Translations under genes and position numbers: made by a program
Shown: positions 17,761 through 37,044 of the stretch, piece after piece
Position numbering within the stretch: the stretch's first letter is position 1
How the letters are laid out: the number at the start of each line of letters is the position of its first letter
NCBI GenBank assembly: GCA_040755995.1
Contig: JBFMAF010000034.1
Location: 74,968-138,967 of the forward strand
Source: Acidobacteriota bacterium
GTDB taxonomy: Bacteria; Acidobacteriota; CAIWXX01
Reading direction: 5' to 3'
DNA: 64,000 bases
The notes under the pieces: model-generated
Seen by the model: only the letters and a program-made list of their open reading frames with translations
Databases searched by the model: none
What the model was told of the DNA's origin: nothing

Positions 17761-17822
17761 GCCGGACGCTAGACATCGGTGGCGGCGCGCAACGGGGGCT
17801 CCGCTGCATGCGGATGTCCGGC
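17761..17822. other. Degenerate attC-like site (62 bp)
   Basis: GCCGGAC GCTAGACATCGGTGGCGGCGCGC...CCGCTGCATGCGGAT GTCCGGC; size and inner motifs match the other attCs but the cores read GAC/GTC. Confidence 0.5.
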
Positions 17823-17997
17823 GGCTTCTCCAGGATTCGCTCCGAGCTCCCATTCGTATACCCGCTCACCGTATCTACGTAGTTGCCACGTGCCTCAAGG
17901 CAATCCCTTGTGGGACCAGAATGGCGGCGGCATGGATCTCGAAGTGAATAACTCTGTTCATTCATTCCCTCCTTGATTGTCCATCGGCGCTGTTCAC

Positions 17998-19310: not shown

Positions 19311-20047
19311 ACCACGCTTCTGAAACTCGGCCAGGTCAGGTCGAGACGCATCACAAGCCGGTCCGTGGCCCTCTCGGGTGAAATCCCGATGGACCTCGCC
19401 TGCTCTTGGAGCTTGGTGACGAACTCGCCACCGCCCTGCAGGTGAGGGTGTGGATGCCTGTCAACGATGCGGAATCCGAGCTTCTCCCAGAAAGTGTGCC
19501 CGGCGCTGCCCGTGACCTCGTAGATGAGGGGGAGGTCCTCAAATGACTCGGCCTCGATACATTCCCAGCCGTTTGTCTTGGCCCAATCAATCAGCGTCCT
19601 GACCATGCACGTGCCGACGCCCTTTCGCTGGTAAGCATTCTCCTTCTGCTGCGGCGAGCCTGCCATCAGGCAGTGAACTGCGAGCGTCCTGTCATCTATC
19701 TGCGCGGGGGCCGGGTAGCTGCTGTTGGCGAAATCCTCAGCGGGGCCGAAGGGATAGTCCTGTTGAAGGCAAAGACCGCCGGCACCATCCATGCTGCATA
19801 CAACCTTCGGGTAGAAACGAAGATGCCCCACGATTTCCTTGCCGTCGCGCGCCACCATGGCGCACACGCCGTAGGTCCTGGTCAGCTTCCTCAGAAGCGG
19901 CAAGTTCCGATCGCGGAAGCGCTCCCACGGTAGTTCGCTGTCGGGCGGCCACCGGTCGATGATGTCGCGGGAAAGCGGTCCACAGTGGAGACAGCGCCAC
20001 AGGATGAACTCCTCCGTCATCGGTTCAACCATGACGTCTTCAATCAT
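19307..20047 (-). CDS. GNAT-family N-acetyltransferase
   Basis: YQRKGVGTCMV acetyl-CoA motif A, FWEKLGF. Confidence 0.75.
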   Translation of the reverse strand: MIEDVMVEPMTEEFILWRCLHCGPLSRDIIDRWPPDSELPWERFRDRNLPLLRKLTRTYGVCAMVARDGKEIVGHLRFYPKVVCSMDGAGGLCLQQDYPFGPAEDFANSSYPAPAQIDDRTLAVHCLMAGSPQQKENAYQRKGVGTCMVRTLIDWAKTNGWECIEAESFEDLPLIYEVTGSAGHTFWEKLGFRIVDRHPHPHLQGGGEFVTKLQEQARSIGISPERATDRLVMRLDLTWPSFRSVV

Positions 20048-20191
20048 GGCACGCTCAGTCCAGGCCACCGCTGATGCCCACGCGCGGGTATCGCCTCGAC
20101 AGTGGGATCGCAACGTGGCTCAGCCGCACCGTGGTCATCCCCCAACCCTCCTTCTCCGTCGGCCGGTCGCCCAGCCGCTGCGCGCGGCGGC

Positions 20192-20503
20192 TCAGACCCG
20201 GGCTCTCCGCCTGGCGCTCCGTGCATGGCCGACGCTGGCTTCCATGTAGGCCCTGAGCAGTGAGTTGATGCGCGTCTGATAACCCGGCCCTTGGGATCGG
20301 AACCACTCCAGGATGTCATCATCCAGGCGGACTGTGAGCAGCGACTTGCGCCGGATCGGTTTCAGGCCGCGCCTGACCAAAGCGCGGGCGAACATCTCCG
20401 GTGTGATTTCAGGACTGTCAGACAGGTCGATATCCTCGTCTTTGGTTGCGTCCACACGTGCCCAATCAGTGCACGATTTGTTCGAAGTAGCTTTCTTCCT
20501 CAT
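20192..20503 (-). CDS. brnA: BrnA-family antitoxin
   Basis: TDWARV..D..DID.SD.PE, TVRLDDDILEWFRSQGPGYQTRINSLLRAYM. Confidence 0.92.
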   Translation of the reverse strand: MRKKATSNKSCTDWARVDATKDEDIDLSDSPEITPEMFARALVRRGLKPIRRKSLLTVRLDDDILEWFRSQGPGYQTRINSLLRAYMEASVGHARSARRRARV

Positions 20504-20962: not shown

Positions 20963-22756
20963 TCATGCACCGTGGGCCAGGGCCCGAAACTCGGCAGACC
21001 TCTGCATGAGCTCATCCCATGTACCGCTGATTTCAATCCGGCCGGCTCGCAGGAAGACGATACGATCACAGTACTGCACGGTCTGCATGCGGTGTGCGAC
21101 CAGAAGTATGGTGGTGCGGCCGTGCAGGAAGCCTATGGCCTGCGCGACGGCCTGCTCGGTGCGGGTGTCCAGCGCGGAGGTGGCTTCATCGAATATGAGC
21201 AGCTCGGGGTCGCGATACACCGCCCGTGCAATCGCCACGCGCTGTCTTTCTCCGCCGGAGATCGTCACGCCGCGCTCGCCGAGCATCGTGTCCAGCCCTG
21301 CGGGGAGGCCGGCTACAAAATCCTCGAGCTGCGCCAGGCGGAGCGCCGCATTGACCTTTTCGTCCACGATGGAGCCATCCGGGACCCCGAACGCTATGTT
21401 TCGTCGCAGGGTATCGTGGGTAAGGTAGATGTTCTGGGGCACGTAGCCGATCTTCCGGCGCCAGGCCTCCGCCCTGTCGCTGATGTCCACGTCATCGACG
21501 GTAACTCGGCCCATGGAGGGCGGCAGCAGTCCGAGAATGATGTCGATGAGCGTGCTCTTGCCTGAACCCGTGGCGCCGACGATGGCAACCGATTCCCCCT
21601 TGGCCACGATGAGGTCCAGATCCTTCAAGACAGGTTCGGCCTCGGGTCCGTAAGCAAAGAAGACGCCCTCCACTGCAAGCCGGCGCTGAAAGGCGAGAGG
21701 CCTGTCGCGATCTGCTTCGCCGTGCGGGACGGCCACTGTGCCTATCAGGCGCATGTCTTCGTAGACCAGGTGGGCATCCGCCGCCCCGTACCGAATGTTG
21801 TTCCACTGGACGGCCATCCGGTTGAAAGAAGGAATGGCCCGGAATCCTGCATAGGCGAACAGGCCCAGCAGCGGAAGCACTTTTTGCCCGCCGCCGGCTT
21901 CCGCGCAGGTCATACCGACAACCAGCAGAGGGATGCAGACGAAAACCGTCTCGACTAGAAACCGTGGGGCAGCGTTGAGAGTGGCGTGCCACTTGCGTGT
22001 CTTCTCGAGGCGGAGCTGGAGCGACAAGAACATGTCGTACCAGTGGCGCTCGCCATCCATGGCCTTCAGTTCCCGGATGCCGCCGAGCGCCTGCTGCAGG
22101 GCCTCCCGGGACTCTACCGAGAGCTGGTGCTGCTCGGCACCGAGGCGGTAGAACCGTCTGTGAGTCCCGTACAGCAACGCTCCGAGCACAAGGCCGATCG
22201 CGGCCAGCGACACGAGCGTTGTCACCGGCGAAGCGAGAATCAGCACGGCGGCCATGCCCGCCAGAACCAGTATTTCGGATATGCATGAAACCGCCGATTC
22301 CAGCACCCTCCGTACGGCATCCTCCGTGCTTCGCACGACCTTGTGCGTGAGGCCTGCGGAACTGCGGCGAGAATGGAACGGCAACGGGGCACTCAGATAC
22401 TGCAACAGGAGACCGCTGGAGAGCGCGGCCACCGTCCTGCCTGTCACGGCGCTTCTGAGGTAGGTTGAACCGAGGAGGAAGAAGTTCTTGAATACGAAAA
22501 GACACGCGGCCGCGAGCGTGAACGAGAGGATGAGCCCGGTCGCGTCCCGGATGCCGAGCGCTGAGTACAGCATAGAGACGACGGGCATGCTGTAGGCGCT
22601 ACTCGGGCTGTCCATGATCCTTATAAGAGCAAAGACGGCCGCGGCGCCCAGGCTTTCGAGCACGGCCTCGACAAGCGAAAGGGGGATGAGGCCGAACCAC
22701 CCGAGCCGCATGCGCGGGCTCAGAAGGGACAGGAGCTTGCGTATACTTGCAAGCAT
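20963..22756 (-). CDS. ABC transporter, fused permease/ATPase (PglK/HetA-like glycan flippase)
   Basis: N-terminal TM domain, GATGSGKST, ISGGERQR, IFDEATSALD; divergent from the glycan cluster. Confidence 0.88.
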   Translation of the reverse strand: MLASIRKLLSLLSPRMRLGWFGLIPLSLVEAVLESLGAAAVFALIRIMDSPSSAYSMPVVSMLYSALGIRDATGLILSFTLAAACLFVFKNFFLLGSTYLRSAVTGRTVAALSSGLLLQYLSAPLPFHSRRSSAGLTHKVVRSTEDAVRRVLESAVSCISEILVLAGMAAVLILASPVTTLVSLAAIGLVLGALLYGTHRRFYRLGAEQHQLSVESREALQQALGGIRELKAMDGERHWYDMFLSLQLRLEKTRKWHATLNAAPRFLVETVFVCIPLLVVGMTCAEAGGGQKVLPLLGLFAYAGFRAIPSFNRMAVQWNNIRYGAADAHLVYEDMRLIGTVAVPHGEADRDRPLAFQRRLAVEGVFFAYGPEAEPVLKDLDLIVAKGESVAIVGATGSGKSTLIDIILGLLPPSMGRVTVDDVDISDRAEAWRRKIGYVPQNIYLTHDTLRRNIAFGVPDGSIVDEKVNAALRLAQLEDFVAGLPAGLDTMLGERGVTISGGERQRVAIARAVYRDPELLIFDEATSALDTRTEQAVAQAIGFLHGRTTILLVAHRMQTVQYCDRIVFLRAGRIEISGTWDELMQRSAEFRALAHGA

Positions 22757-23168
22757 TCTACTGCCTCCCCGGGATCAGGCTCTTGTGCACAGTCTCGGTC
22801 TTCTCTCCGAAAGCTGCCCGCGAAACAGCCGCTGCCAATTTGTACACCAGCAAGCCCAGAGCCTCGGATAGTGATGTTTCAACGGCAATGACGACGGGGT
22901 TGGCGCGGCACGGCGGCTGTCATGGGAACTCTTTCGCGAGACCGAATTCACTCATCCCGCATGCACTATAGGGCATCGTTGCACGTTCCGTCAACGTATG
23001 CGCAGACCCACCCGTCGAGCGTTCCGCACTTTGACAACCGGCCTACCTCAACATATATTCTCGCGGTGCCATGTTCTCATCGGCTTCCGCGTGACGAAGG
23101 CCGGGCATGGTCGACGATGGAGTTGCCCTAGCCCTTCGAGCCTAGTCGTGGATATCTACAGGACTGGA

Positions 23169-24422
23169 ATGAATCCGGGAACCTTCAATCTCGTAAACGG
23201 ATCATGCCATCGGCGCCAGGAGGAAATAGCCGCGGTCAAGAGATTCCTTGTCTCGAACAGATGGAGAGAGGAAGGCGGTGTCAATCAGGCGGACCTGGTC
23301 ATATTCTTTGCCTGCGGTGCGATGCGTCTCAATGTCGATGAAATGATGGTGAGCCTCACCGACGTCATTGGCAAGATGAAGAACGGCGCAGAGCTCGTCG
23401 TCGGCGGCTGTCTGCCCCGGACAGACAGCGAGAGGCTGAGCCAGGTCTTCACTGGAAAGACGATTACGTACGCCGATTACACCGCGCTCGACACGCTCCC
23501 CGGCGTCGAGAATCGGTTCGAGACACTGCCGAAGGTGTTCGGCAATGGCGCGTTCTGCCCGCCGCTCGTCAAGCCGGGCCTGCGCAAAGCGGGCGCTCTT
23601 CGCCTCGTCAGGCTCTCACTTGACCTCGCGCGTGTGTTGATGCGCCACCGGCCGACATCCATTCTGAGGAGAATCGCATCAAGGCTCAGGCAATACGAGC
23701 GCATGGTGATCAGCGTTGGGGCAGGCTGCTCTCGAACCTGCCCCTATTGTGCGAAGCGATTCGCCCTGGGCCCCGTGAGGAGCAAACCGGCAGAGAAAGT
23801 CATGCAGCGGATTGCGGCAGGGAGAATGCTGGGGTACCGGACCTTCGATCTCTTTGCCGATTCGATCGGAGACTACGGCCAGGATCTGGGCACCGACTTC
23901 GGAGCGCTCCTCGACAGCATCGCGGACTTCGAGGCAGCCGTCAGCGTCGGGATCTATGATCTACACCCCGAGGATTTCATCCGGTACTTCGACAGAATCC
24001 TCGGTTTGTGCAAAACGGACAGGTTGCATTACCTTTACGTAATCACGGAATCGGGAAACGCGCGGGTGCTGAGATCGATGCGTCGGGAGATCGACACCGT
24101 GGATCTCGCTCGAAAGCTTCAGGCAATTCGCGGCTACAAGAGCGTTTTCATGCAAACGGCGATCATTGTCGGCTATCCGGGCGAGACGGATGAGGAGTTC
24201 GACGACACGCTGGCGCTGCTCGGCGAAGTCAATTTCGACAATGTGTACGTGCATTGTTATTGCGATATGCCGAACACAGAGTCATCCCGGCTCGACGGCA
24301 AGATCTCCAAGGAGACCGTGTCGAGACGATTGCGCAGGATAGCCGCTGCCGGCATCAGGCACAGCGTTAGCGAGGCCAGGCGCGAGTGCGATCACTCGTT
24401 CCCATGGGGCTCGTTGGGCTGA
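23169..24422 (+). CDS. MiaB/RimO-like radical SAM protein 1 (UPF0004 + rSAM, no TRAM)
   Basis: SCHRRQEE, FACG, GGCLP; CSRTCPYC; ESGN, IIVGYPGETDEEF. Confidence 0.85.
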   Translation: MNPGTFNLVNGSCHRRQEEIAAVKRFLVSNRWREEGGVNQADLVIFFACGAMRLNVDEMMVSLTDVIGKMKNGAELVVGGCLPRTDSERLSQVFTGKTITYADYTALDTLPGVENRFETLPKVFGNGAFCPPLVKPGLRKAGALRLVRLSLDLARVLMRHRPTSILRRIASRLRQYERMVISVGAGCSRTCPYCAKRFALGPVRSKPAEKVMQRIAAGRMLGYRTFDLFADSIGDYGQDLGTDFGALLDSIADFEAAVSVGIYDLHPEDFIRYFDRILGLCKTDRLHYLYVITESGNARVLRSMRREIDTVDLARKLQAIRGYKSVFMQTAIIVGYPGETDEEFDDTLALLGEVNFDNVYVHCYCDMPNTESSRLDGKISKETVSRRLRRIAAAGIRHSVSEARRECDHSFPWGSLG

Positions 24423-24479
24423 TGAGGGCGTGGCGTTGAGGCTGGCACCGCCGATTCAACTATCTGCATCTAGAATCGC

Positions 24480-25718
24480 GTGAGATCGTTTCACTTCGTC
24501 GACAATTCGTGCTATCGCCGGCAGGAAGAGGTGTCAATGGTGCGCAGGTTCTTCCTGTCGAACGGATGGACGGAGTCAGCGACGGTGGAGAATGCCGACT
24601 GCGTGATCCTGTTCACCTGCGCGGAGATGCGTTACAAAGCGGCCAACATGATCGGAGAAGTGGAAAGGCTGTCGGCTCGGATCGGCCGTGATTCGGAGTT
24701 GATTGTGGGAAGCTGCCTGCCGAAGACCAACAAGGAAGCGCTGGCGAAGGTCTTCAGCGGGCGCACGATCACGCCGACCGATTTCAGCGCGCTCAACGCT
24801 CTTCCGCAGATCAAAGTCAAGATCGAGGACATGCCACCCGTCTTTGGTAGGAATGCGGCCTTCAGGCCGTTCCCTGCGCGGAATCGTTGGAGCAAGGGCA
24901 ACGCCATTCCGTACGGGATATCACGTTGGGCTTCCAGGCTTATGCTTCGCCACCTTCCATTCGACGGTCTGAAGGGCCTCGCGATAAAGCTCGGAAGAAC
25001 CAGGGCGATGCGAATCCATGTATCGGCGGGCTGTGCCAAGAACTGCTCTTACTGCGCGATTCATTTCGCGACCGGGCAGGTCAGGAGCAAACCGCTCGAA
25101 GTGATCATGCAGACTATCTCCGAGGGGCTCCGGCTGGGATACAGAACTTTCGATCTCATCTCCGACTCCATCGGCAGCTACGGCCTGGATCTCGGCACGG
25201 ACCTGGGCGAGCTATTCGATCGTGTTCTGGGACATCCGGATCGCTTCACGATCGGCATCGACGATCTACATCCACACGAGTTCATCAGGTACTTCGACGG
25301 GGTCTTCTCCCTGTGCAGCGCGGGCAAGATGTCGTACCTCTACGTGCCGGTTCAATCAGGCAATGAGCGGATACTGGGATTGATGAATCGCCGGTGCAAT
25401 GTGAAGGACCTGACGGACAAGCTCCTAATGATGAGGCACCTTGGAGATGTTTTCCTGGAGACGAGCGTCATCGTGGGATTTCCCGGGGAAACCGAGGCGG
25501 AATTCGACGACACGGTTCATTTCTTGAAGACGGTCGATTTCGACAACGTGTTCATACACTACTACTGCGACATGCCGAACACCACATCCTCGATCCTCCC
25601 CGACAAGACGGACAAGGCCACCATGGTGGAGCGATTGAACCGGATCAATCGTTCAGGCATCAGGCACTCTGTGGCGGCCACCCGCCACGAGTGGGACTGC
25701 AATCTGGCGCTTCCATGA
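24480..25718 (+). CDS. MiaB/RimO-like radical SAM protein 2
   Basis: SCYRRQEE, FTCA, GSCLP; CAKNCSYC; PVQSGN, VIVGFPGETEAEF. Confidence 0.87.
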   Translation: MRSFHFVDNSCYRRQEEVSMVRRFFLSNGWTESATVENADCVILFTCAEMRYKAANMIGEVERLSARIGRDSELIVGSCLPKTNKEALAKVFSGRTITPTDFSALNALPQIKVKIEDMPPVFGRNAAFRPFPARNRWSKGNAIPYGISRWASRLMLRHLPFDGLKGLAIKLGRTRAMRIHVSAGCAKNCSYCAIHFATGQVRSKPLEVIMQTISEGLRLGYRTFDLISDSIGSYGLDLGTDLGELFDRVLGHPDRFTIGIDDLHPHEFIRYFDGVFSLCSAGKMSYLYVPVQSGNERILGLMNRRCNVKDLTDKLLMMRHLGDVFLETSVIVGFPGETEAEFDDTVHFLKTVDFDNVFIHYYCDMPNTTSSILPDKTDKATMVERLNRINRSGIRHSVAATRHEWDCNLALP

Positions 25719-26980
25719 GCAAGAAGTTCCTCATCATCGGCAAGTCGTGCAGTCGGCGGCAGGAAGAAGTGTCCATGGTGAGGAGGTTTCTCCTGTCGAA
25801 CGACTGGAACGAAACCGGGCGACTGCAGAGAGCAGACCTGATTGTCTTCTTCGCCTGCGCCGGTGTCCGCTGCATCGTGAACGAGAACCTGGAGGAAATA
25901 GCAGAAACCCAGAAGAGAATGAAACCGGGCGCAGAGCTGATTGTCGGAAGCTGCCTGCCGAGAATGGACACCGAGAGTCTTCGAAGCGTCTTCAAAGGGA
26001 GAACCATCACCCCGACGGACTTCACGGCGTTGAACGATCTCCCCAATGTCCGGCTGCCTTTCGAAGCCATGCCCGCCATGTGGGGCAGGGATGCTGCGTG
26101 CATCCAGTTGAAACACCCCGGATCGATCGCTGCCTCACGAATGTGGATCGAGGACGCAGCATTCCAGTGCGTCAAGTTCATCATCGAAAAGCGGCCGGCC
26201 CCCTTCTTGAAGCGGACGGCCTTCTGGCTGAAGAGGCGCAACATCGTGAGCTTCTCTGTCGCCGCAGGCTGCTCGAGGAAATGCGCCTACTGTGCCAGGC
26301 CGTTCGCGAGCGGAAAGGTACGGAGCAAGCCGATCGAGGTGGTCGTGGAGAATATACGCAGAGGACTCAGCCTGGGCTACAGAAGCTACAACCTGTATGC
26401 CGACTCCATCGGCACCTACGGCTCTGATCTGGACGTCAGTCTCGGGGATCTGTTGGAGCGGATTCTGGGCATAGACGGGCGTTTCACAATCGGCCTGTAT
26501 GACGTACATGCGCAGGATTTCATCAGGTTCGTTCATCCGATCAAGCGCCTGTGTGAATCGGGAAAGCTCCATTACCTCTATGTGGGCGTCCAGTCTGGGA
26601 ACGAGCGCATCTTGAAACTGATGAGGCGGCCGTGCGACGTGGAGGACCTGGCGGCGAAACTGGCCGACATACGGCGCTTCGAGCACGTGTTCATGCAGTC
26701 GGCGATCATCGCAGGATTCCCAGGGGAGACCGACGACGAGTTCGAAGATACGCTTCGGCTGTTGAAGCGGGTCAACTTCGACAACGTCTTCGTTCATTGC
26801 TACTGCGACATGCCGAACACCGAAGCGTCCGGCATGCCGGCCAAGGTCGACAAGGATGCAGTGCGCGGGCGGCTCACCCGTGTCACACGCGCAGGCATCC
26901 ATCATGACGCAGCGGAGGCCCTGCAAGAGTGGGACGGCAACCCCGCTATTCACGATTATTTCGGACATCAGGCCCGATGA
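25715..26980 (+). CDS. MiaB/RimO-like radical SAM protein 3
   Basis: ATGA-coupled start MSKKFLIIG; SCSRRQEE, FACA, GSCLP; CSRKCAYC; VQSGN, IIAGFPGET. Confidence 0.87.
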   Translation: MSKKFLIIGKSCSRRQEEVSMVRRFLLSNDWNETGRLQRADLIVFFACAGVRCIVNENLEEIAETQKRMKPGAELIVGSCLPRMDTESLRSVFKGRTITPTDFTALNDLPNVRLPFEAMPAMWGRDAACIQLKHPGSIAASRMWIEDAAFQCVKFIIEKRPAPFLKRTAFWLKRRNIVSFSVAAGCSRKCAYCARPFASGKVRSKPIEVVVENIRRGLSLGYRSYNLYADSIGTYGSDLDVSLGDLLERILGIDGRFTIGLYDVHAQDFIRFVHPIKRLCESGKLHYLYVGVQSGNERILKLMRRPCDVEDLAAKLADIRRFEHVFMQSAIIAGFPGETDDEFEDTLRLLKRVNFDNVFVHCYCDMPNTEASGMPAKVDKDAVRGRLTRVTRAGIHHDAAEALQEWDGNPAIHDYFGHQAR

Positions 26981-28287
26981 GATCAATCAGGAGCAGGCCG
27001 GCACCGGCCGCGCCGATCTTGTCTGCTCCCGCTGATGCATCCACCCCTGTGAAGACCTTCACATTCGTCAACCAGTCGTGCCACCGGCGTCAGGAGGAAA
27101 TCGCCATGGTCAGGCGGTTTCTTCTTCTCAACGGCCTTGCCGAGGACTCGGATCTGACGAGAGCGGACCTGGTAATCCTCTTCACCTGCGCGTTCTGCCA
27201 GAGCAAAATCGCGGACATGTTGAATGAGATAGCGCGCATTCGTTCCGTCATCAGGGAAGGATGCGAGCTTGTCGTCGGAAGCTGTTTGCCAAAGACAGAC
27301 GGCGCCGGGCTGCGGAAGGTCTTCAGCGGAAAAACGATCACGCCTACCGATTTCAGCGCGCTCAACCGGCTCCCCGGGATCACCTCCGGAATCGAGGAGA
27401 TGCCGGAGGCGATCGGAAGGCAGGCTGCATGCGAGCCGCTCGTCATCCAACCACCCTCGAACACGGCCAGGGCTCGCTTGAAGGCACTTGCGCTGGGCGC
27501 TACCAGATCGCTGATGCGCACATGGCCGGCGCTGCCTCTCGAAAGAGTCGCTACCAGGCTCGAAACCGACCGGCGAATGGGAGTGTTTATCTCTTCAGGC
27601 TGCATGCGAAAGTGCTCGTATTGTGCGATCCGGTTCGCCACTGGGCAGCTCAGGAGTAAACCGCTGGACGTGGTCACTCGAGCGTTTTCCGAAGGGCTGG
27701 ATCGGGGATATCGCAAGTTTGAGCTGTATGCCGATTCAATCGGCGACTATGGGTTGGATATCGGCACGGACCTCGGCGAGCTGTTTGACTGGTTCTCGAA
27801 GAGCCATCGGGTCTTCAGCGTCGGAATCTATGATCTCCACCCGCAAGCGTTTCTGAAGTTCTTTGGAAAGCTCTTCTCACTCTGCAGGGCGGGCAGGATT
27901 CACTATCTCTATGTTCCCCTGCAATCGGGCAACGCAAGAATCTTGAAATTGATGAATCGCTCGTGCGATGTGAACGCTCTCTTGAGGAAGCTCCTGGAAG
28001 TGAGGAAACATCGTGGTGTGTTTCTTCAGACCAGCGTCATCGTGGGCTTCCCGACCGAAACAGACGCGGAATTCGAGGAGACGCTGGCTTTTCTAAGGGC
28101 AGTCCGGTTCAGCAATGTGTTTGTCCATTTCTACAGCGACATGCCCAATACGGAATCATCGAAACTGGCCGACAAGATAGACAGGGCGACCATGCTGCTG
28201 CGGCTGAAGCGACTGGGGAGAGCCGGTATCAATTATGACCCTGACATGGCCCGGCACGAGTGGGAAGCTACCCCCGCTCTTGGTTGA
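26977..28287 (+). CDS. MiaB/RimO-like radical SAM protein 4
   Basis: ATGA-coupled start; SCHRRQEE, FTCA, GSCLP; CMRKCSYC; PLQSGN, VIVGFPTET. Confidence 0.87.
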   Translation: MRSIRSRPAPAAPILSAPADASTPVKTFTFVNQSCHRRQEEIAMVRRFLLLNGLAEDSDLTRADLVILFTCAFCQSKIADMLNEIARIRSVIREGCELVVGSCLPKTDGAGLRKVFSGKTITPTDFSALNRLPGITSGIEEMPEAIGRQAACEPLVIQPPSNTARARLKALALGATRSLMRTWPALPLERVATRLETDRRMGVFISSGCMRKCSYCAIRFATGQLRSKPLDVVTRAFSEGLDRGYRKFELYADSIGDYGLDIGTDLGELFDWFSKSHRVFSVGIYDLHPQAFLKFFGKLFSLCRAGRIHYLYVPLQSGNARILKLMNRSCDVNALLRKLLEVRKHRGVFLQTSVIVGFPTETDAEFEETLAFLRAVRFSNVFVHFYSDMPNTESSKLADKIDRATMLLRLKRLGRAGINYDPDMARHEWEATPALG

Positions 28288-28386
28288 CCATGCATCGTGA
28301 TCTGCGCCCGAGCGCGGGAGTTGCGTCGTGAAGGCACCTGTCGCCGGCGAGCGACCTCTGCAACCAGGTCTGGCGCACGCACGCCA

Positions 28387-29565
28387 ATGAGCCGCGTTGG
28401 ATTTCTCTGGGACTCGCTGAGCGCCAATACGGGTGACCAGGCCATCGGTCTGACCATGCTGCGCCTGGCGCGGCGCGCCGGGCTGCGCGGCCTCGATCCC
28501 GTGCGGATCGGCGAGCCGCTGGCCGGCCGCTACGACATGCTGGTTGTCGGCGGCGGCGAGCTGCTCCACCCGCCGGGCCACGGCTTCTACGACCTCTTCC
28601 GCGTCCCGGGCGAGCACGTGCTCAGCACTGTGGGCACCTCCGGCGTCGTCGATGCCAGCCATCTCTCGTCCTACCGGCTGGTCACCGTGCGGTCATCGGC
28701 GGACCGCGACAACCTGCGCGGACTCTCGCGCGAGGTGAAGGTCGCTCCATGCCTCAGCGTGCTGTTCCCAGGGCTGGCCGAGGACCATCCGGCGGCCATG
28801 GAGCGGGACTCGATTCTGGTGCACCTGCACGCGGGAGCGTTCTTGCCGAGCACCGCCCCGACGATGGTGTCGATGCTGCGGCGGCTGGGCCGGCCGGTTG
28901 CGCTGCTTCCGTTTACACCCTACATCCGCGACGCCGACATACAGGCAGTCCTCGCCGCCGCCGCGGACATCGCTCCACCGCTCGCAGTCGCCGGCCCGGA
29001 CCAGGTATTCGCCGCCATGCGCCGGGCTGGTGCAGTGGTCGTCGCGTCGCTACACGCCGCGATCTTCGCGTACATCGCCGGCGTGCCCTTCCTTGCAATT
29101 CCGTACGTGCCGAAGGTGAGGCACTTCATGGCAGAGCGCGGACTTGAGCACCGGCTGCTGCCGGACGTGCTGCGCCTCCCAGAGAGGCTGCATCTCCTCG
29201 CCGCCGATGGCGTCGACTGGCAGGCGACGGCCGCGGCAGATGTGGCGTCCGCAGGCGCGGTCGTGGATGAGATATTCGCCTTGGTCGAGGACGCCCTTGC
29301 GCGGTCCGGTGGAGGTCGGGCCTGGGGAGCCGCCTGGAGGGAGCCGGCCTGCCCCGAGCGGGCGCACGCCGAAACCATGGGCCGCATTGCTGAGTTCGGC
29401 CGCCGGCAGGCGCAGGTCACGGCCGACGTTCTCGCCGGCCGTCACAGATTGCGGCGACTGATCGCAACCGGCATTCGGACGGTGGTGAAGCATGTGCCGG
29501 CGATCCGCCGGCTGGGCTGGGCGCGAGCGGTGTGGGAGCGGTGGCTGGTGACTCATGGCTGCTGA
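28387..29565 (+). CDS. Polysaccharide pyruvyl transferase-family protein
   Basis: NTGDQAI, VGGGELL, VTVRS, SLHAAIFA..GVP, YVPKV. Confidence 0.78.
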   Translation: MSRVGFLWDSLSANTGDQAIGLTMLRLARRAGLRGLDPVRIGEPLAGRYDMLVVGGGELLHPPGHGFYDLFRVPGEHVLSTVGTSGVVDASHLSSYRLVTVRSSADRDNLRGLSREVKVAPCLSVLFPGLAEDHPAAMERDSILVHLHAGAFLPSTAPTMVSMLRRLGRPVALLPFTPYIRDADIQAVLAAAADIAPPLAVAGPDQVFAAMRRAGAVVVASLHAAIFAYIAGVPFLAIPYVPKVRHFMAERGLEHRLLPDVLRLPERLHLLAADGVDWQATAAADVASAGAVVDEIFALVEDALARSGGGRAWGAAWREPACPERAHAETMGRIAEFGRRQAQVTADVLAGRHRLRRLIATGIRTVVKHVPAIRRLGWARAVWERWLVTHGC

Positions 29566-30478
29566 CGGCGGTCCCAGCGGCTCCACCGAGCCCCTGGTCT
29601 ACGTGGTGGTGCTGAGCTGGAACCGCGCCGCCACGACGCTCAGGTGTATCGAGTCAGTTGCCGGCAGCAGCTATCGGAACGCCCGCGTGGTTGTCGTCGA
29701 CAATGCATCCGCCGACGATTCTGTGGCACGCATTCGGGAGCGATTCCCTCAGGTTCCGCTCATTCAGAACCCAGCTAACCTGGGGTACGCCGAAGGCAAC
29801 AACGTGGGGATACGGTACGCGATGGAGAGGGGAGCCGAGTTCGTGCTGGTGCTCAATGACGACGTCTTCATTGAACCGGACGCGCTGGGCCACATGGTGG
29901 CCGCGGCGGGCCCAGGGGTGGCGGCCGTCGGGTGCAAAGTGCGCCTCTTCGACGAGCCCGACCGGTTGTGGGCGGCCGGCGATCTCAATTTCCGGACGGC
30001 AGATGCACACCCGAAAGACGACGGCCGTTTCGATGCGCCACGCGACCTGGACTACGCCGTGGGTTGTTGCATCCTCCTCCGCGCCGGCGTCCTCGATGAG
30101 ATCGGGCGTTTCGATCCTTCATACTTCCTCGAGTTCGAGGAAGTCGACTGGTGTTCCCGCGCCCGGAAGGCGGGTCACAGGATCGTTTATGAGCCGAGAG
30201 CCGTGGTCTACCACAACCATTCGGTGTCTTTCACCGACAGTTGTTCGCCGGCCTTCCACTATCTCTCCGCCCGCAACTGTCTTCTGTTCTGGAAGCGCAA
30301 TGACGTCGTGCTTAGCGGACGCCCCCGCGCCCTCTACGGCCTGATTTCGTGGCTGGCCCAGCTTCGTCTCATTCTGCGCACAAGGGGTTCCAAGCTGCGA
30401 CGGATCACTGCCGCTACGCTCGGGGTCGTCGACTACTACCGCGGGCGCTTTGGCGCTCCACCTCCCAACCTCTACTGA
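29555..30478 (+). CDS. Glycosyltransferase family 2
   Basis: VVVLSWN, VVVDNASAD, NLGYAEGNNVG, LVLNDD, GCCILLR, FEEVDWC. Confidence 0.93.
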   Translation: MAADGGPSGSTEPLVYVVVLSWNRAATTLRCIESVAGSSYRNARVVVVDNASADDSVARIRERFPQVPLIQNPANLGYAEGNNVGIRYAMERGAEFVLVLNDDVFIEPDALGHMVAAAGPGVAAVGCKVRLFDEPDRLWAAGDLNFRTADAHPKDDGRFDAPRDLDYAVGCCILLRAGVLDEIGRFDPSYFLEFEEVDWCSRARKAGHRIVYEPRAVVYHNHSVSFTDSCSPAFHYLSARNCLLFWKRNDVVLSGRPRALYGLISWLAQLRLILRTRGSKLRRITAATLGVVDYYRGRFGAPPPNLY

Positions 30479-30494
30479 TCATGGGGGCGCGCGC

Positions 30495-31724
30495 GTGAAG
30501 ATCCTGTACGCCGCCGGCGACTTCCCGGCAGAGCCTCTGAACGGGTGCCACTGGTTTGCGTACAACCTGATTAACTGCATGGCACGATCGCACGAGTGCC
30601 ACCTGATCAGTCTTGCCATGCCGGGGCGAGCCGCGTGCGTCCGGGAATGGGAGCGGTGCCTGCCGGGCCTGCGCGTGCTGGATGTTCTCCCGGTGCGGCA
30701 CCGTCAGCTGGTGCGTTGGTCGAAGGGGGCGAATTACATCACGAACCTCCGGATCCCCCATCTCGTGCAATGGATGACACCGGGGTTCACTCGTGCACTT
30801 CGACGGGTGGTCCGCGAGACCTCCTACGACCTCGTCCACTTCACCGACATCACCCTGGTCTTCTATCGCAACCTTGTGCGTGGCTCCCCAGTCGTGATCT
30901 CCGGGCCCGATCCGGCCTCGCTCCATCTCCGGGGCAACATGCCGTTTGAACCTTCGTTCGCAAAGAGAGTGAAGTTGGCCACGACGGCCCGGGCGTACGG
31001 CAACATAGAACGGACCCATCTAAAGACGTTCTCAGCGGTCCACGTGGTGTCCGAGGCGGACGCCGAGCACTTGAGGCGCAGCGCCGGACTGAAAAACGTC
31101 ACTGTGATTAACCATGCGGTGGACCCGAGATTCTTCGCCGTCCCCATTGAGGCCTGCGGCGACGAGGATGCAGTTACCATGTTCAGCTCGGGATCCTTCT
31201 CGGTGCCCTACATACGTACGCCGTTCATGAGCTTCTTCGAGAGGCACTGGGATGCGATCCGGCGATGCCGCCCCGCGGCACGCTGGGTTGTCGCGGGACC
31301 GGGAGCGCCAGCCGATGTGAAGAAACGGCTCACGGCGGCGCCCGGTGTCGAATACCACGAGTGGATTCACGACTATGACGGCGCTCTCTTTCGATCCGAC
31401 ATCGCCGTTTTTCTGGATGGCAGCGGAACGGGCATGAAGACAAGGGTGCTGCAGGCCATGGGCGCCGGAAAGGCAGTGGTCGGCACGCCTTTCGCCTTCA
31501 CAGGGCTTGAGGTCAAACACGGAGTGCAGGGCTTCATCGCGGACGGGCACGATTCCTTGATGAGGGCCCTGGTCGCTCTGATCGAGTCGCCCCGGCTGCG
31601 GCGTGAAATCGGCGGGGCCGCGAGGGAACACGTCAGGGCGAGATTCACGCTGGAAATCACGGGCCGAAAGTGGGATGCCCTGTACGAGCGAATGTTGCGG
31701 CAGCATCGGGATACACGGCTGTGA
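30495..31724 (+). CDS. Glycosyltransferase family 4 (GT-B)
   Basis: VHVVSEAD, GTGMKTRVLQAMGAGKAVVGT, IGGAAREHVRARF. Confidence 0.87.
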   Translation: MKILYAAGDFPAEPLNGCHWFAYNLINCMARSHECHLISLAMPGRAACVREWERCLPGLRVLDVLPVRHRQLVRWSKGANYITNLRIPHLVQWMTPGFTRALRRVVRETSYDLVHFTDITLVFYRNLVRGSPVVISGPDPASLHLRGNMPFEPSFAKRVKLATTARAYGNIERTHLKTFSAVHVVSEADAEHLRRSAGLKNVTVINHAVDPRFFAVPIEACGDEDAVTMFSSGSFSVPYIRTPFMSFFERHWDAIRRCRPAARWVVAGPGAPADVKKRLTAAPGVEYHEWIHDYDGALFRSDIAVFLDGSGTGMKTRVLQAMGAGKAVVGTPFAFTGLEVKHGVQGFIADGHDSLMRALVALIESPRLRREIGGAAREHVRARFTLEITGRKWDALYERMLRQHRDTRL

Positions 31725-31851
31725 ACAGATGGGTTGCCGCCCGCCCGCCCGGTCGAGTCTTGCCTTGTCGAAGCCCTATCGATATACTCGGAGTTCGGTA
31801 CCTCGGAGTCGGCGCTGGCGCGACTAGCTCGCCAAGAGGAGCTTTGTACCA

Positions 31852-32853
31852 ATGGAGATCAAGGGATTGCGCGTGCTCGTCACGGGCGGTTGCGGATTTC
31901 TCGGATCGTGGATTGTCGAGGACCTTGTGAAAAGAGGCGCCGACGTCACGGTCTACGATAACCTCAGCCGCGGGACTCAGGACAACCTGAAGGCGGTTGA
32001 GAAGGATGTCAGACTCTCCGTTGCGGACATACGCGATCAGCAGAAGGTCTACGAGGCTTGCCGGACGGCGGATGTCGTTTCTCACCATGCTGCTCAAATC
32101 GTGTCGTCGTTGGAAAGCTCGATCGAGACGATCGAGGTCAATCTGTCGGGCAGCGTGAAGGTATTCGAGGCCGCCGCCGCGGCCGGCGTCAAGAAGGTGA
32201 TCTACGCCTCGTCCGAGACCGTGTACGGGCATGCCAACGCCCTTCCACAGGATGAAAACCATCCGACCAATCCGCTCTGGCCATACGGAGTCACCAAGCT
32301 GGCCGTGGAGAAGTTCGCCAGCATCTTCCACGCCTACTCCGGGATGAAGATGATCGGGTTGAGGTACAGCGACATATACGGGCCGAGGGAGTGGTACGGG
32401 CGCGCGTCGACGGTGTTGCTGCGAGGCGCGATGCGCGGCGAGCAGCCGGAAATGCCCGATGCCGATCAACTCAGGGACTACTGCTACGTCGCGGATGCCG
32501 TCGCGTTTCACAACCTCTGCATCGCTGAAGATGAGCTCGATGACGAGATCTTCAATGTCTCCACCGGAGTCGCGACGAGTACAGGGGAGCTGGCGGAGCT
32601 GATTGCGGACACCTGCCGCCTGGATTGGAGCACTCCGCGGCTTGCCCACGGCGACGCAAGGCACGAAGACGTGCGGGCGAGCCACGTGCCGCATGCTGAG
32701 TGCAAGGCGATCGTGCTGGACAACTCGCGGGCGAGGCGCATCGGGTGGGTGCCCCACGTCATGCTGCCGGAGGGGATCAGGCACCAGCTGGAGTGGCTCC
32801 GTGCTCATCCTGCTGCATGGGACGGAGCGCGGGTTGCAGGAGAGGTTGGCTAG
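31852..32853 (+). CDS. NAD-dependent sugar epimerase/dehydratase
   Basis: VLVTGGCGFLGS, YASS, YGVTK (YxxxK), RDYCYVAD. Confidence 0.9.
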   Translation: MEIKGLRVLVTGGCGFLGSWIVEDLVKRGADVTVYDNLSRGTQDNLKAVEKDVRLSVADIRDQQKVYEACRTADVVSHHAAQIVSSLESSIETIEVNLSGSVKVFEAAAAAGVKKVIYASSETVYGHANALPQDENHPTNPLWPYGVTKLAVEKFASIFHAYSGMKMIGLRYSDIYGPREWYGRASTVLLRGAMRGEQPEMPDADQLRDYCYVADAVAFHNLCIAEDELDDEIFNVSTGVATSTGELAELIADTCRLDWSTPRLAHGDARHEDVRASHVPHAECKAIVLDNSRARRIGWVPHVMLPEGIRHQLEWLRAHPAAWDGARVAGEVG

Positions 32854-33828
32854 GTGAAGAGACAACAGATGCTGTATCTGTCTCGCTCCGATGTCGAGAA
32901 GGTGGCATTGGATATGCCCACGATCATTGCCCTCCTCGAGGAGGCCTTCAGGGAGAAGGGGCATGGGCGCGTCGAGATGCCTCCGAAACCCGGCATCCAC
33001 ACACGCCCGGACGCGTTCATTCACGCGATGCCCGCTTACATCCCGGCGCTGCGGTCGGCGGGGATGAAGTGGGTGAGCGGCTATCCGGACAACCAGAAGC
33101 TCGGCCTCCCATACATCTCCGGCCTACTGATTCTGAACGACGCCGAGACGGGACTGCCGTACGCTGTCATGGATTGCAGCTGGATTACGGCCTACCGGAC
33201 TGGAGCGGCCTCGGCGCTGTCAGCCAAGTATCTGGCGCGCCCATCAAGCGAGGTCGTCGGAGTGCTGGCGTGCGGTGTCCAGGGGCGCACAAACCTCATC
33301 GCCCTCGCGTCGGTGCTGCCGATCAAGCGCGCCTACGCCTTCGACATCTCCGCCGCGGTCCAGGAGCGCTTCGTCGACGAGATGCATTCCAGTCTTGGCA
33401 TCGAGGTCATCGGGGTCGACGGGCCCCGCCGCGCGGTCGCCGAATGCGACGTCGTCGTCACCTCAGGACCGATTCTCAAGCATCCGGTGCCGGCCATCCA
33501 GAAGGACTGGCTGTGTCCCGGGGCCTTCGCAAGCGCGGTGGATTTCGACAGCTACTGGGCCGGCGAGGCTCTGGCGCAGTTCGACAAACTGGCCACCGAC
33601 GACATTGCCCAGTTCGACTACTACCGGAGCGCCGGCTATTTCCAGGCGACTCCGCGGCCCTATGCGGACCTGGGCGAGCTGGTGGTCGGGTTCAAGCCCG
33701 GCCGCGAGCGAGACGACGAGCGAACCATGGCGATGAACCTGGGGCTGGCGCTCGACGACATGGCGGTCGCGCCGGAGATCTATCGGAGGGCGCGGGAGAA
33801 GGGCATTGGGACGATGCTGGAGCTGTGA
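32854..33828 (+). CDS. Ornithine cyclodeaminase/mu-crystallin family protein
   Basis: HAMPAY, GMKWVSGYPDN, ITAYRTGAAS, CGVQGR, GLALDD. Confidence 0.92.
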   Translation: MKRQQMLYLSRSDVEKVALDMPTIIALLEEAFREKGHGRVEMPPKPGIHTRPDAFIHAMPAYIPALRSAGMKWVSGYPDNQKLGLPYISGLLILNDAETGLPYAVMDCSWITAYRTGAASALSAKYLARPSSEVVGVLACGVQGRTNLIALASVLPIKRAYAFDISAAVQERFVDEMHSSLGIEVIGVDGPRRAVAECDVVVTSGPILKHPVPAIQKDWLCPGAFASAVDFDSYWAGEALAQFDKLATDDIAQFDYYRSAGYFQATPRPYADLGELVVGFKPGRERDDERTMAMNLGLALDDMAVAPEIYRRAREKGIGTMLEL

Positions 33829-33991
33829 GGTGTCTGTCTTCGTCCCGGAGGGCGCCCGATACCTCGCTCTCCCCATGAACCACGCCGTGCCGACAGGATG
33901 CAGTCCATTGCCAGGGTTCGCAGGGGGCCAGGCGGCTCCCCGTTGAATCTCTCAACTTGCGGGACCACGCTGGTCTGTGCAGAATGCCGAT

Positions 33992-35011
33992 ATGAAACGG
34001 CGTGAGTTCCTTGGGTCGGCCGCGACAGTTGCGGGTCTTGTGATGACTCCGAGCGGCGTCCTCAGCTCGGATGCGAAGAGCCGTGTCGTTCAAGTGTTCC
34101 ACGCTGACGCCGTGCGCCCCGGCAGGCAGGTGGATCAGGCTATCGTAGCGAAGATGCTTCGCAGCGGCCTCAGGGCGCTGGCCGGCGAGGGCCAGTCCAT
34201 CGGCAAGTGGGTCCGCCCGGGCGATCGGGTCGGGCTCAAGATCAACACGCTGGGCCGCCCGCTTCTGTTCACGCATCGCGAGCTGATACTAGCCCTCGTC
34301 GAGGAGCTGAAAGAGACGGGGGTCAGCGAGAACAACATCATTGTATGGGACCGGTTCGAGAACCATATGTTGGAGGCGCGATTCGTCATGAACAACTCGG
34401 ATCGCGGCGTGCGCTACGTCGCGACGGAATCAGGCGGCGATGGGCCTGCCAGACTCGACGACAACGAGCCCTACCAGTCTGCGCATGACGATCCGCGCGA
34501 TCGCCACAACGGCGACACCGCCTCGCGATTCTCCCGGATCTTCACTCGGGAATGCGACAAGATCATCAACATGCCGATCCTGAAGGATCACGGCCAGACG
34601 GGCGTGACCCTTTGCCTCAAGAACCTGGCCTTCGGTATCACGACGAACAACAACAGGTTTCATGGAGCCAGCCACGTCGGACCGTTCATATCCGATATAT
34701 GCGCCCGGCCGCTAGTGAAGTCCAAGACCGTCCTGCATATTCTTGACGGCCTGGAAGGATGCTTCAACAATGGGCCGGCACCGCGACATCCGGGCTCGTT
34801 TTCGACGCCCCGCACAATCTGGCTCGGCTTCGACCCCGTGGCCGTCGACGTGGTCGGGCGCAGGGTAATCGAAGAGCAAAGGCGCGCAGGTGGGTTGCCC
34901 TCGCTTGCGGCCATGAACAAGCCGGTCGACTACATAGAGATGGCGGCCCGAAAGGGAGTAGGGGAATGCAATCTCGATCGCATCTCCCTCGAAAAGATCT
35001 CCGCTGCCTGA
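33992..35011 (+). CDS. DUF362 domain protein, Tat signal
   Basis: MKRREFL, VGLKIN, INMPILKDH..GVTLCLKN, DPVAVD. Confidence 0.85.
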   Translation: MKRREFLGSAATVAGLVMTPSGVLSSDAKSRVVQVFHADAVRPGRQVDQAIVAKMLRSGLRALAGEGQSIGKWVRPGDRVGLKINTLGRPLLFTHRELILALVEELKETGVSENNIIVWDRFENHMLEARFVMNNSDRGVRYVATESGGDGPARLDDNEPYQSAHDDPRDRHNGDTASRFSRIFTRECDKIINMPILKDHGQTGVTLCLKNLAFGITTNNNRFHGASHVGPFISDICARPLVKSKTVLHILDGLEGCFNNGPAPRHPGSFSTPRTIWLGFDPVAVDVVGRRVIEEQRRAGGLPSLAAMNKPVDYIEMAARKGVGECNLDRISLEKISAA

Positions 35012-35070
35012 TTGGCCTTGCCAGGTTCGCGCATCGCTAGACAGGGACTCCCTCGATGGGCGCCCCCCTA

Positions 35071-35967: not shown

Positions 35968-35980
35968 CGATACCTCCGTT

Positions 35981-36874: not shown

Positions 36875-37044
36875 TACCCTGGACAAGCTCTCTCCTCCAC
36901 AGGTTTCATGATGGTAGCAAAACAGAACCGTGAATTCAAAGACAGGTGACGTCATTGATAAAGACCGGCCCTTTCCTTACAATGCGCCCTGATGATCACC
37001 ATGAAGCCGCGTCCCGACGATTCGCGCGGGCACAGGAGAGAGTA

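What the first reader, a model, noticed from the sequence alone, without database searches (positions are those of the whole stretch)
20963..33828. Four tandem TRAM-less methylthiotransferase-like radical SAM enzymes heading a glycan biosynthesis/export cluster
Seen: four co-oriented ~410-440 aa paralogues, two of the three junctions ATGA-coupled. Each keeps CxxxCxYC plus three N-terminal cysteines (SCxRRQEE, F[AT]C, G[GS]CLP). They share V[YF][VI]HxYxDMPNT and end ~40 aa later. They are followed by pyruvyltransferase-like, GT2, GT4, epimerase and cyclodeaminase genes, with a divergent PglK/HetA-like ABC exporter. Known: in MiaB/RimO/MtaB those three cysteines bind the auxiliary Fe-S cluster used for methylthiolation, a C-terminal TRAM domain recognises tRNA or S12, and the genes are normally single-copy housekeeping. 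Inference: this subfamily has been redirected from RNA/protein to a sugar, lipid-linked glycan or glycolipid, possibly adding methylthio/thio or methyl groups at several positions. I know of no characterised pathway like this.
Basis: partly seen in the sequence, partly recalled or inferred. Interest (0 to 1): 0.85.

Follow-up and report, generated by a model that had tools for sequence, protein, structure and literature searches.

The report
Four TRAM-less methylthiotransferases for glycan tailoring
Four neighbouring genes encode iron-sulfur radical enzymes built like those that add a methylthio (-SCH3) group to tRNA but without the RNA-gripping end; they form four old, distinct subtypes that sit with sugar-transfer and export genes, so they likely decorate a cell-surface sugar chain, which would be a new kind of target for this enzyme class.

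Summary
Observation confirmed. Four intact paralogues (R1-R4, 45-53% identical) carry UPF0004 + radical SAM with all six cluster cysteines and no TRAM domain (Pfam, tail length, AF2 model; RimO Z 28). They fall below every NCBIfam MiaB/RimO/MtaB cut-off and branch outside those clades; the genome encodes its own MiaB, RimO and MtaB elsewhere. New here: R1-R4 are four conserved subtypes that occur together as mixed sets (1 of 31 co-located pairs are the same type, 8.4 expected), and most carry a ~32-residue basic amphipathic insert. The module shared with one related genome is R1-R3 + pyruvyltransferase-like + GT2 + GT4. The exporter differs between the two; the epimerase and cyclodeaminase are not part of the module. 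The clade nests in a large uncharacterised TRAM-less family, glycan-linked in 8 of 21 independent loci versus 7 of 132 canonical loci, so enriched but not exclusive. Best reading: site-specific radical methylthiolation of a surface-glycan intermediate (about 0.4). No activity, substrate or product is shown. This scan noted the broad family before on other DNA, including in sugar clusters, but not this four-subtype clade.

The parts
20963..22756 (-). Divergent ABC exporter (ABC_membrane + ABC_tran; MsbA/HepA/PglK-like). Candidate flippase; no orthologue in G001, which has Wzm/Wzt in its cluster instead
22965..22994 (-). Sigma-70-like site (TTGACG-18-TATAGT, 10/12) pointing to the ABC exporter; consensus match only
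23031..23059 (+). Sigma-70-like site (TTGACA-17-TATATT, 11/12) 110 nt before the R1 ATG; favours a start at 23148/23169 over 22998; consensus match only
23169..24422 (+). R1: UPF0004 + radical SAM, no TRAM; subtype with Glu in place of the otherwise conserved Gln of QSG (8 of 8 R1-type rows)
24480..25718 (+). R2: UPF0004 + radical SAM, no TRAM; Cys11/47/79 and Cys185/189/192; modelled at pLDDT 93
24912..24995 (+). R2 residues 145-172: two predicted helices inside the ~32-aa basic amphipathic insert that canonical methylthiotransferases lack
25715..26980 (+). R3: UPF0004 + radical SAM, no TRAM; ATGA-coupled to R2 here and in G001
27049..28287 (+). R4: UPF0004 + radical SAM, no TRAM; likely GTG start 27049 (alternative ATG 26977); not found in G001
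28387..29565 (+). Polysaccharide pyruvyl transferase-like protein (PF04230, 42 bits); 68% identical orthologue in the G001 cluster
29555..30478 (+). GT2 glycosyltransferase; 77% identical orthologue in G001 is fused to a putative sugar O-methyltransferase (TIGR04371, above cut-off)
30495..31724 (+). GT4 glycosyltransferase; 70% identical orthologue in the G001 cluster
31760..31788 (+). Weak sigma-70-like site (9/12) before the epimerase; may mark the end of the module
31852..32853 (+). NAD-dependent epimerase/dehydratase; adjacent but not in the conserved module (best G001 match 34%, other contig)
32854..33828 (+). Ornithine cyclodeaminase/mu-crystallin family; orthologues (71%, 83%) lie on other contigs in G001 and G002, so not part of the module

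Best explanation
R1-R4 are four TRAM-less relatives of the MiaB/RimO methylthiotransferases that keep both sets of iron-sulfur-binding cysteines and likely add methylthio (-SCH3) groups, each probably at its own position, to a sugar intermediate of the surface glycan that the neighbouring glycosyltransferases are predicted to build. Shown: domain anatomy, six cysteines, SAM-binding motifs, loss of TRAM, separate clade, four stable subtypes, linkage to PV/GT2/GT4. Inferred from MiaB/RimO chemistry: a radical-SAM [4Fe-4S] cluster on CxxxCxYC and an auxiliary cluster on the three N-terminal cysteines; one SAM methylates a cluster-bound sulfur, a second gives the 5'-deoxyadenosyl radical that abstracts a substrate H, and SCH3 is transferred. 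[quoted passage not shown]
For: Six cysteines present in 72 of 72 core rows and 121 of 121 broad rows where all six positions align; spacing CX35CX31C, close to the published CX35-36CX32-33C (PMC5352715, passages read). SAM-side motifs kept: S293, M302, R304, GFPxE, and Q292 except in R1. Best folds RimO Z 28.0 (rmsd 3.2, 331 aligned, chain 3-363 of 421) and MiaB Z 27.1. tRNA and S12 jobs are already covered by MiaB (457 bits), RimO (434) and MtaB (349, just under its 357 cut-off) on other contigs. G001 keeps R1-R3, PV, GT2 and GT4 together at 68-77% identity, with Wzm/Wzt, a sugar O-methyltransferase fusion and a KdoO-like hydroxylase; G002 of the same family lacks the whole set. Three of 5 other close GT4 orthologues share a contig length with R proteins (9752, 5869, 6354). 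Glycan gene within 5 kb: 8 of 21 independent TRAM-less loci versus 7 of 132 canonical loci, Fisher p 1.2e-4. Four subtypes, each a clade (99-100 support), with 1 of 31 co-located pairs the same type versus 8.4 shuffled, P 0.0003. Linker from third Cys to CxxxC is 106 aa (median; R1-R3, broad) versus 66-74 in canonical enzymes, net charge +5 to +9 versus -2 to 0.
Against: No activity, substrate or product is known. Residues 91-100% conserved in all four canonical classes are replaced in this clade (R2 numbering N14->R, N45->F, R198->T/S, R259->G), so the auxiliary-cluster chemistry may differ. Direct synteny for this clade rests on 2 genomes of one family; more distant R2/R4 arrays could not be inspected, and no close GT4 orthologue matched their contig lengths. 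13 of 21 broad-family loci had no glycan gene in the profile test; some sit with B12 radical SAMs, ThiF/MMPL or polyamine genes. Most R4-type proteins lack much of the insert (median linker 88). The locus has no initiating sugar-phosphate transferase or ligase, so the glycan itself is undefined.
Confidence: 0.4

Rival explanations
1. Same glycan-pathway substrate, different radical chemistry: thiol or thioether insertion without a methyl group, C-methylation, or radical deoxygenation, epimerisation or oxidation of sugars, with the auxiliary cluster as sulfur donor, substrate anchor or electron relay.
For: Canonical residues near the auxiliary cluster and barrel are replaced, and new invariant polar residues appear (D229, D262, H264, H360, D364, E404). 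AprD4, a radical sugar dehydratase, is the fourth fold match (Z 20.3). AbmM inserts sulfur into a sugar from its cluster (PMC12691670, passages read). Broad-family members often sit with methylating enzymes: B12 radical SAM within 5 kb in 16 of 40 loci versus 0 of 144.
Against: UPF0004 with three cysteines is known only from methylthiotransferases in the papers read. RimO and MiaB outscore AprD4 by 7-8 Z units; AbmM is a weak match (Z 8.9).
Confidence: 0.27
2. The target is not a sugar but something else handled by the locus: a lipid or aglycone that GT2/GT4 glycosylate, a small exported metabolite, or a protein acceptor.
For: No initiating transferase, polymerase or ligase in the locus. The amphipathic insert fits a lipid substrate equally well. 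Broad-family loci include UbiA/B12-radical-SAM, ThiF/MMPL and polyamine contexts. Earlier scan notes place other TRAM-less members in lipid, NRPS, NAD and phage-fibre loci (unchecked leads).
Against: The genes that stay with R1-R3 in G001 are all glycan genes, and G001 adds Wzm/Wzt with a Wzt C-terminal domain, a sugar O-methyltransferase and a KdoO-like hydroxylase. No lipid or peptide biosynthesis gene lies in either core locus.
Confidence: 0.2
3. The four subtypes are subunits of one heteromeric enzyme that makes a single modification, rather than four site-specific enzymes (compatible with either chemistry).
For: Subtypes occur as mixed sets; R2/R3 translational coupling is conserved; R1 has a Gln-to-Glu change in the SAM-ribose motif.
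Against: The sets vary: R1+R2+R3 in G001 (100% complete, 350 contigs, no R4) and at contig length 9752; R1+R2+R4 at 43852 and 61566; R2+R3+R4 at 141326 (lists may be incomplete). All subtypes keep six cysteines.
Confidence: 0.15
4. They are extra tRNA or ribosomal-protein methylthiotransferases that work without TRAM, or with a TRAM supplied in trans.
For: In B. subtilis chimeras, substrate discrimination lies outside TRAM (PMC2952846, passages read). The proteins are basic (net +5 to +15). Unrooted, the TRAM-less set falls on the same side as archaeal e-MtaB.
Against: Own MiaB, RimO and MtaB are present. No PF01938 TRAM match lies on this contig (2 in the genome, both on C41). The Phe and Arg of the F-x-Y-S-x-R motif (MiaB F350, R355, numbered; tRNA-contact roles recalled from Esakova 2021, not read) are His and Met in all core rows. 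Patchy distribution (core clade in 2 of 401 genomes of the phylum sample) and low GC3 fit an accessory island.
Confidence: 0.05

Closest known systems
RimO (uS12 Asp beta-methylthiotransferase; TIGR01125; PDB 4JC0)
   Same: UPF0004 three-Cys domain + radical SAM barrel; best fold match, Z 28.0, 26% identity; acts on an sp3 carbon of a non-RNA substrate.
   Different: No TRAM; 108-141 bits versus cut-off 357; core+RimO clade rejected, p-AU 1e-4; ~32-40 aa insert; multi-copy in a glycan locus.
MiaB (tRNA i6A37 methylthiotransferase; TIGR01574; PDB 7MJV)
   Same: Same two-domain core, Z 27.1; QSG, MxR and GFPxET motifs.
   Different: No TRAM; 110-133 bits versus cut-off 355; Q215, D319, F350, R355 positions are D, G/S/A, H, M; core+MiaB rejected, p-AU 3e-5.
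MtaB and e-MtaB/CDKAL1 (tRNA t6A37 methylthiotransferases; TIGR01579, TIGR01578)
   Same: e-MtaB is the nearest canonical lineage in unrooted trees and shares K/R at position 195 and the GxYGxD segment.
   Different: No TRAM; 124-154 bits versus cut-offs 315 and 357; core+MtaB and core+e-MtaB rejected, p-AU 9e-6 and 3e-4.
Radical SAM enzymes acting on sugars: AprD4 (PDB 6FD2), AbmM (PDB 8WM2)
   Same: Precedent for radical chemistry on sugars, and for cluster-derived sulfur insertion in AbmM.
   Different: No UPF0004 three-Cys domain; 12-13% identity; natural-product pathways, not surface glycans.
5-methylthio-xylofuranose (MTX) cap of mycobacterial lipoarabinomannan
   Same: A methylthio sugar on a bacterial envelope glycan exists (PMC10675199, passages read).
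   Different: Made from methylthioadenosine and attached by a glycosyltransferase (recalled, not read here), not by radical C-H methylthiolation.

Membership tests
MiaB/RimO/MtaB methylthiotransferase family (TIGR00089) | Radical SAM domain with CxxxCxxC | tested here: met
   PF04055 47-66 bits in all four; motif intact
MiaB/RimO/MtaB methylthiotransferase family (TIGR00089) | N-terminal UPF0004 domain with three Cys (CX35-36CX32-33C) | tested here: met
   PF00919 24.5-31.2 bits (2 of 4 above the 27-bit cut-off); CX35CX31C in 72 of 72 core rows, within the X26-X34 spread of the canonical set
MiaB/RimO/MtaB methylthiotransferase family (TIGR00089) | C-terminal TRAM domain | tested here: not met
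   No PF01938/PF18693 hit; tail after CxxxC 227-235 aa versus medians 279-290; model ends in two helices; structural match to RimO stops at residue 363
MiaB/RimO/MtaB methylthiotransferase family (TIGR00089) | Score above curated cut-off (251 bits) | tested here: not met
   166-187 bits; one broad relative just passes at 256
MiaB/RimO/MtaB methylthiotransferase family (TIGR00089) | Two [4Fe-4S] clusters and SAM-dependent methylthio transfer | not testable with these tools
   Ligands present; needs reconstitution and assay
MiaB | TIGR01574 cut-off and placement in the MiaB clade | tested here: not met
   110-133 versus 355 bits; AU rejection
RimO | TIGR01125 cut-off and placement in the RimO clade | tested here: not met
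   108-141 versus 357 bits; AU rejection
MtaB / e-MtaB | TIGR01579 / TIGR01578 cut-offs and placement inside those clades | tested here: not met
   124-154 bits versus 357/315; core clade excluded from both. A sister position of the whole TRAM-less set to e-MtaB is not excluded
B12-dependent radical SAM methyltransferases | B12-binding domain (PF02310) | tested here: not met
   No PF02310 hit at E<=0.01; N-terminal domain is UPF0004 with three Cys
MTL1 (fifth methylthiotransferase-like group of epsilon-proteobacteria; name recalled) | Membership of that clade | not tested
   No paper with both terms in the library; no MTL1 sequence was in the trees
ABC-transporter-dependent surface glycan locus | Glycosyltransferases plus ABC exporter in one locus | tested here: met
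   GT2, GT4, PV-like and MsbA/PglK-like exporter here; Wzm/Wzt in G001
ABC-transporter-dependent surface glycan locus | Initiating phosphoglycosyl transferase and ligase/acceptor identified | tested here: inconclusive
   None in the locus; two Bac_transf-like genes lie on other contigs

The most novel reading that the evidence does not exclude
A set of four specialised two-cluster radical SAM enzymes writes methylthio groups onto several positions of one pyruvylated surface glycan at the inner membrane. They would be the first methylthiotransferases acting outside tRNA and ribosomal protein uS12, and an entry point to a large TRAM-less sister family (more than 130 clusters at 50% identity) that may branch outside all four known classes.
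Probability: 0.33. Interest if true: 0.85.

Novelty: new variant of a known kind. Interest (0 to 1): 0.62.

Why it matters
A 2023 paper (PMC10702137, Discussion read) states that tRNA and ribosomal protein S12 are the only known substrates of methylthiotransferases, and notes that the enzyme making methylthio-F430 is still unknown. A TRAM-less family with non-RNA substrates would extend C-H methylthiolation to small molecules or glycans. Four orthologous subtypes with one scaffold give a ready comparison set for how site selectivity is encoded. It also predicts sulfur-decorated envelope glycans in uncultured bacteria. These proteins are currently auto-named 'tRNA A37 methylthiotransferase MiaB' in metagenome annotations, which is a systematic mislabel.

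Tried and rejected
Assembly repeat or recent duplication: rejected. Epimerase and cyclodeaminase as pathway partners: rejected as conserved partners. R1 start at 22998 and R3 start at 25394: rejected by alignment, orthologue starts and promoter position. Both collection scans were swamped by canonical enzymes and covered 1 of 64 parts, so they gave no core-clade locus; their canonical loci served as the control set. Plasmid search gave only 14 records at 24-29% identity. Core clade not found in the genome samples centred on WOR-3, Desulfovibrio, a Bacteroidales family, Methanothrix, Methanosphaera, GN15 or Anaerolineae; only broad-family members were. No sequencing run was listed for the stretch. 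The R2-R3 complex prediction could not be run because the queue was full, so binding is untested. The careful 40-row tree did not finish; the quick tree is reported. The promoter count (5 versus 2.9 +/- 1.8 shuffled) is not significant by itself. The PV-like protein had no solved relative (best E 0.036). Longer fused forms search gave 3 weak hits. Literature: 10 searches showed no paper on a TRAM-less methylthiotransferase-like family or its link to glycans; the library lacks most subscription papers, including the MiaB structure paper, and no supplements were read.


Full report
OBSERVATION. Pfam finds Radical_SAM and UPF0004 in all four and no TRAM. NCBIfam ranks TIGR00089 first at 166-187 bits against a cut-off of 251, and every MiaB, RimO, MtaB and e-MtaB equivalog is missed by more than 160 bits. 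The paralogues are 45-53% identical. Downstream lie PV-like, GT2, GT4, epimerase and OCD genes; an MsbA/HepA/PglK-like exporter is divergent. The genome (7.7 Mb, 99.8% complete) has MiaB, RimO and MtaB on three other contigs, so the four are additional.

TRAM IS ABSENT. The distance from CxxxC to the C-terminus has a median of 226-232 aa in the core subtypes and 221 in the broad family, against 279-290 in the canonical classes. The AF2 model of R2 (87-row alignment, pLDDT 93, pTM 0.90) ends in two helices. Its best structural matches are RimO (Z 28.0, rmsd 3.2, 331 aligned, chain residues 3-363 of 421) and MiaB (Z 27.1), then MgmA (23.5) and AprD4 (20.3); Foldseek gives the same top group. PF01938 hits only two places in the genome, both on another contig; that test alone is weak because it misses the genome's RimO and MtaB.

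FAMILY. A profile search listed 120 of 239 hits. The top 88 (4 are the window's own) score 413-760 bits and none carries a TRAM annotation; two more score 207 and 184; of the 30 rows at 141 or less, 16 carry TRAM. Against 1.84 billion representatives, 16 of the 150 listed score 340 or more and 134 form a plateau at 262-300 bits where the list is cut; 126 of those with normal length have TRAM-less tails (209-273 aa). So a small core clade nests in a large TRAM-less family. The Atlas shows unnamed UPF0004 + Radical_SAM clusters of about 400 aa without TRAM. Trees on TRAM-free columns: in 76 rows the core is one clade (99) apart from MiaB (100), RimO (100), MtaB (99) and e-MtaB (99), with all TRAM-less rows together at 84; in 40 rows the four canonical classes group together at 99 and exclude all TRAM-less rows, two of which branch separately (quick tree). 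AU tests on 21 rows reject core+RimO, +MiaB, +MtaB and +e-MtaB (p 1e-4, 3e-5, 9e-6, 3e-4) and reject the whole TRAM-less set as sister to RimO, MiaB or MtaB (p 0.018, 0.003, 0.005), but not to e-MtaB. Whether TRAM was lost or never gained is open. Canonical rows were a random subset of 118 motif-labelled proteins.

FOUR SUBTYPES. Among 87 core proteins, R1 (8), R2 (26), R3 (11) and R4 (25) are each a clade with 99-100 FastTree support; 17 are basal. Taking equal 'longest contig' length as a proxy for co-location gives 18 groups of 42 proteins; 1 of 31 pairs is the same subtype against 8.4 in shuffles (P 0.0003). The proxy is not proof of one contig. The combinations vary (R1R2R3, R1R2R4, R2R3R4), which fits separately specialised enzymes better than a fixed complex.

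ACTIVE SITE. All six cysteines are present in 72 of 72 core and 121 of 121 broad rows where the six positions align. S293, M302, R304 and GFPxE are kept; Q292 is Glu in R1 only. Positions conserved across canonical classes are changed (N14->R, N45->F, R198->T/S, R259->G), and the F-x-Y-S-x-R segment becomes H-x-Y-C/S-D-M. MiaB numbers come from the alignment; their roles in tRNA binding are recalled from Esakova 2021, which I could not read. The linker between the third cysteine and CxxxC is 106 aa (R1-R3, basal, broad) versus 66-74, is basic (+5 to +9 versus -2 to 0), has a higher hydrophobic moment (median 0.45-0.65 versus 0.29-0.46), and is modelled as helices 145-158 and 162-172. Most R4-type proteins have a shorter linker (median 88). 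No transmembrane segment is apparent.

CONTEXT. With the core profile, 3 of 401 genomes of the phylum sample matched: G000, G001 (three copies) and G027 (a broad member). G001 has [sugar O-methyltransferase-GT2]-R1-R2-R3-GT2-GT4-Wzm-Wzt-PV-KdoO-like. Shared genes are 68-77% identical; R4, the exporter and the epimerase have no orthologue there, and OCD lies elsewhere in G001 and G002. G002 lacks the module. Of 5 other GT4 proteins at 63% identity or more, 3 share a contig length with R proteins, 1 is on a contig too short to tell, and 1 has no match; one of the three may be G001's own cluster. GC3 of R1-R4, GT2, GT4 and the exporter is 0.70-0.77 against a genome median of 0.83, in line with an acquired island. 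Broad-family members were found in 1 of 151, 7 of 251, 8 of 57, 1 of 201, 0 of 151, 3 of 101 and 0 of 181 genomes in seven other group samples. One test applied to all loci (profiles built from G000 paralogues outside this locus, seeded from TRAM-less loci; no Wzx profile) found a glycan gene within 5 kb in 15 of 40 TRAM-less versus 7 of 144 canonical loci, and a B12 radical SAM in 16 of 40 versus 0 of 144. After merging the duplicate G001 locus and dropping 18 Bacteroidales-family loci (6 positive) and the Collinsella-like controls, it is 8 of 21 versus 7 of 132 (p 1.2e-4). Pfam shows examples with DegT, GT4, Wzx, Wzz, Bac_transf and GT-C genes, and counter-examples with prmC, U32/B12 radical SAM, ThiF/MMPL and polyamine genes. 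Fusions in the broad family: a B12 radical SAM (P0239), internal duplications (P0139, P0172), and an N-terminal domain that is sulfotransferase-like only as a lead (P0189).

MECHANISM. By established MiaB/RimO chemistry (PMC10702137 Discussion read; PMC5352715 passages), one SAM methylates a sulfur on the auxiliary cluster and a second yields the radical that activates a C-H bond. The proteins keep the parts for this, lack the RNA/protein clamp, and travel with glycan-building and tailoring genes. I therefore infer methylthiolation of a nucleotide-sugar or lipid-linked glycan at several sites before ABC export. I put the glycan-pathway substrate at about 0.7 and methylthio transfer, given that, at about 0.55, hence 0.4. 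Rivals: other radical chemistry on the glycan (0.27), a non-sugar target (0.2), tRNA or uS12 (0.05); a heteromer (0.15) is a separate question of organisation.

KNOWN AND NEW. It works like a methylthiotransferase by anatomy but fails membership of MiaB, RimO, MtaB and e-MtaB. Ten library searches showed no description of a TRAM-less family; the library lacks most subscription journals. Papers seen: PMC10702137 (passages and Discussion), PMC5352715, PMC2952846, PMC12691670, PMC10675199, PMC7545696, PMC13459092 and bioRxiv 2026.06.07.730766 (passages only; the last two had nothing relevant). This scan's earlier notes describe other TRAM-less members in sugar, lipid, NRPS, NAD and phage loci; look-ups by sequence and by relatives found nothing like this clade, and one note is a re-reading of this same stretch. 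I read those notes after forming my reading; they are leads, not support.

VERDICT. A real, intact, uncharacterised enzyme set; new variant of a known kind; interest 0.62.

Noticed in passing
window 9200-10465, 13757-14065, 15461-16243; G000:C34:68369-69634: ATP sulfurylase (sat) is present as a full copy, two 3' fragments at 91-92% identity, and a second full copy (98%) 16 kb upstream of the first, outside the window; looks like a repeated integration site at the sat 3' end.
   Followed up: partly
window 1478-8081 and 14084-20503: Island-like content upstream of the cluster: cytosine DNA methylase-HerA-NurA genes, DDE transposase, nucleotidyltransferase pair, PemK-like and BrnA-type toxin-antitoxin genes, and a sensor kinase split over two ORFs at 17998-19310.
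   Followed up: no
L203:6335-10269 (G1286:C38): A broad-family TRAM-less gene directly follows pyruvoyl arginine decarboxylase, deoxyhypusine synthase and agmatinase genes, suggesting a polyamine-linked member.
   Followed up: no
L192-L202, L207-L212 (family of G405): Eight of 57 genomes of one Bacteroidales family carry 1-4 TRAM-less genes inside large clusters of B12 radical SAMs, SPASM radical SAMs, UbiA prenyltransferases, methyltransferases, sulfotransferases and Wzm/Wzt.
   Followed up: partly
L181:10284-11720 (G001:C23): KdoO-like hydroxylase (PF11004, 193 bits) follows the PV-like gene in the related cluster; absent from the window's cluster.
   Followed up: no
protein P0093: An R2-type UPF0004 N-terminus joined to a GT28-C-like region without the radical SAM barrel; single sequence, may be a chimera or frameshift.
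   Followed up: no
window 33977-36955: Two convergent DUF362 genes with Tat-like N-termini and a DUF6599 gene lie right after the OCD gene.
   Followed up: no
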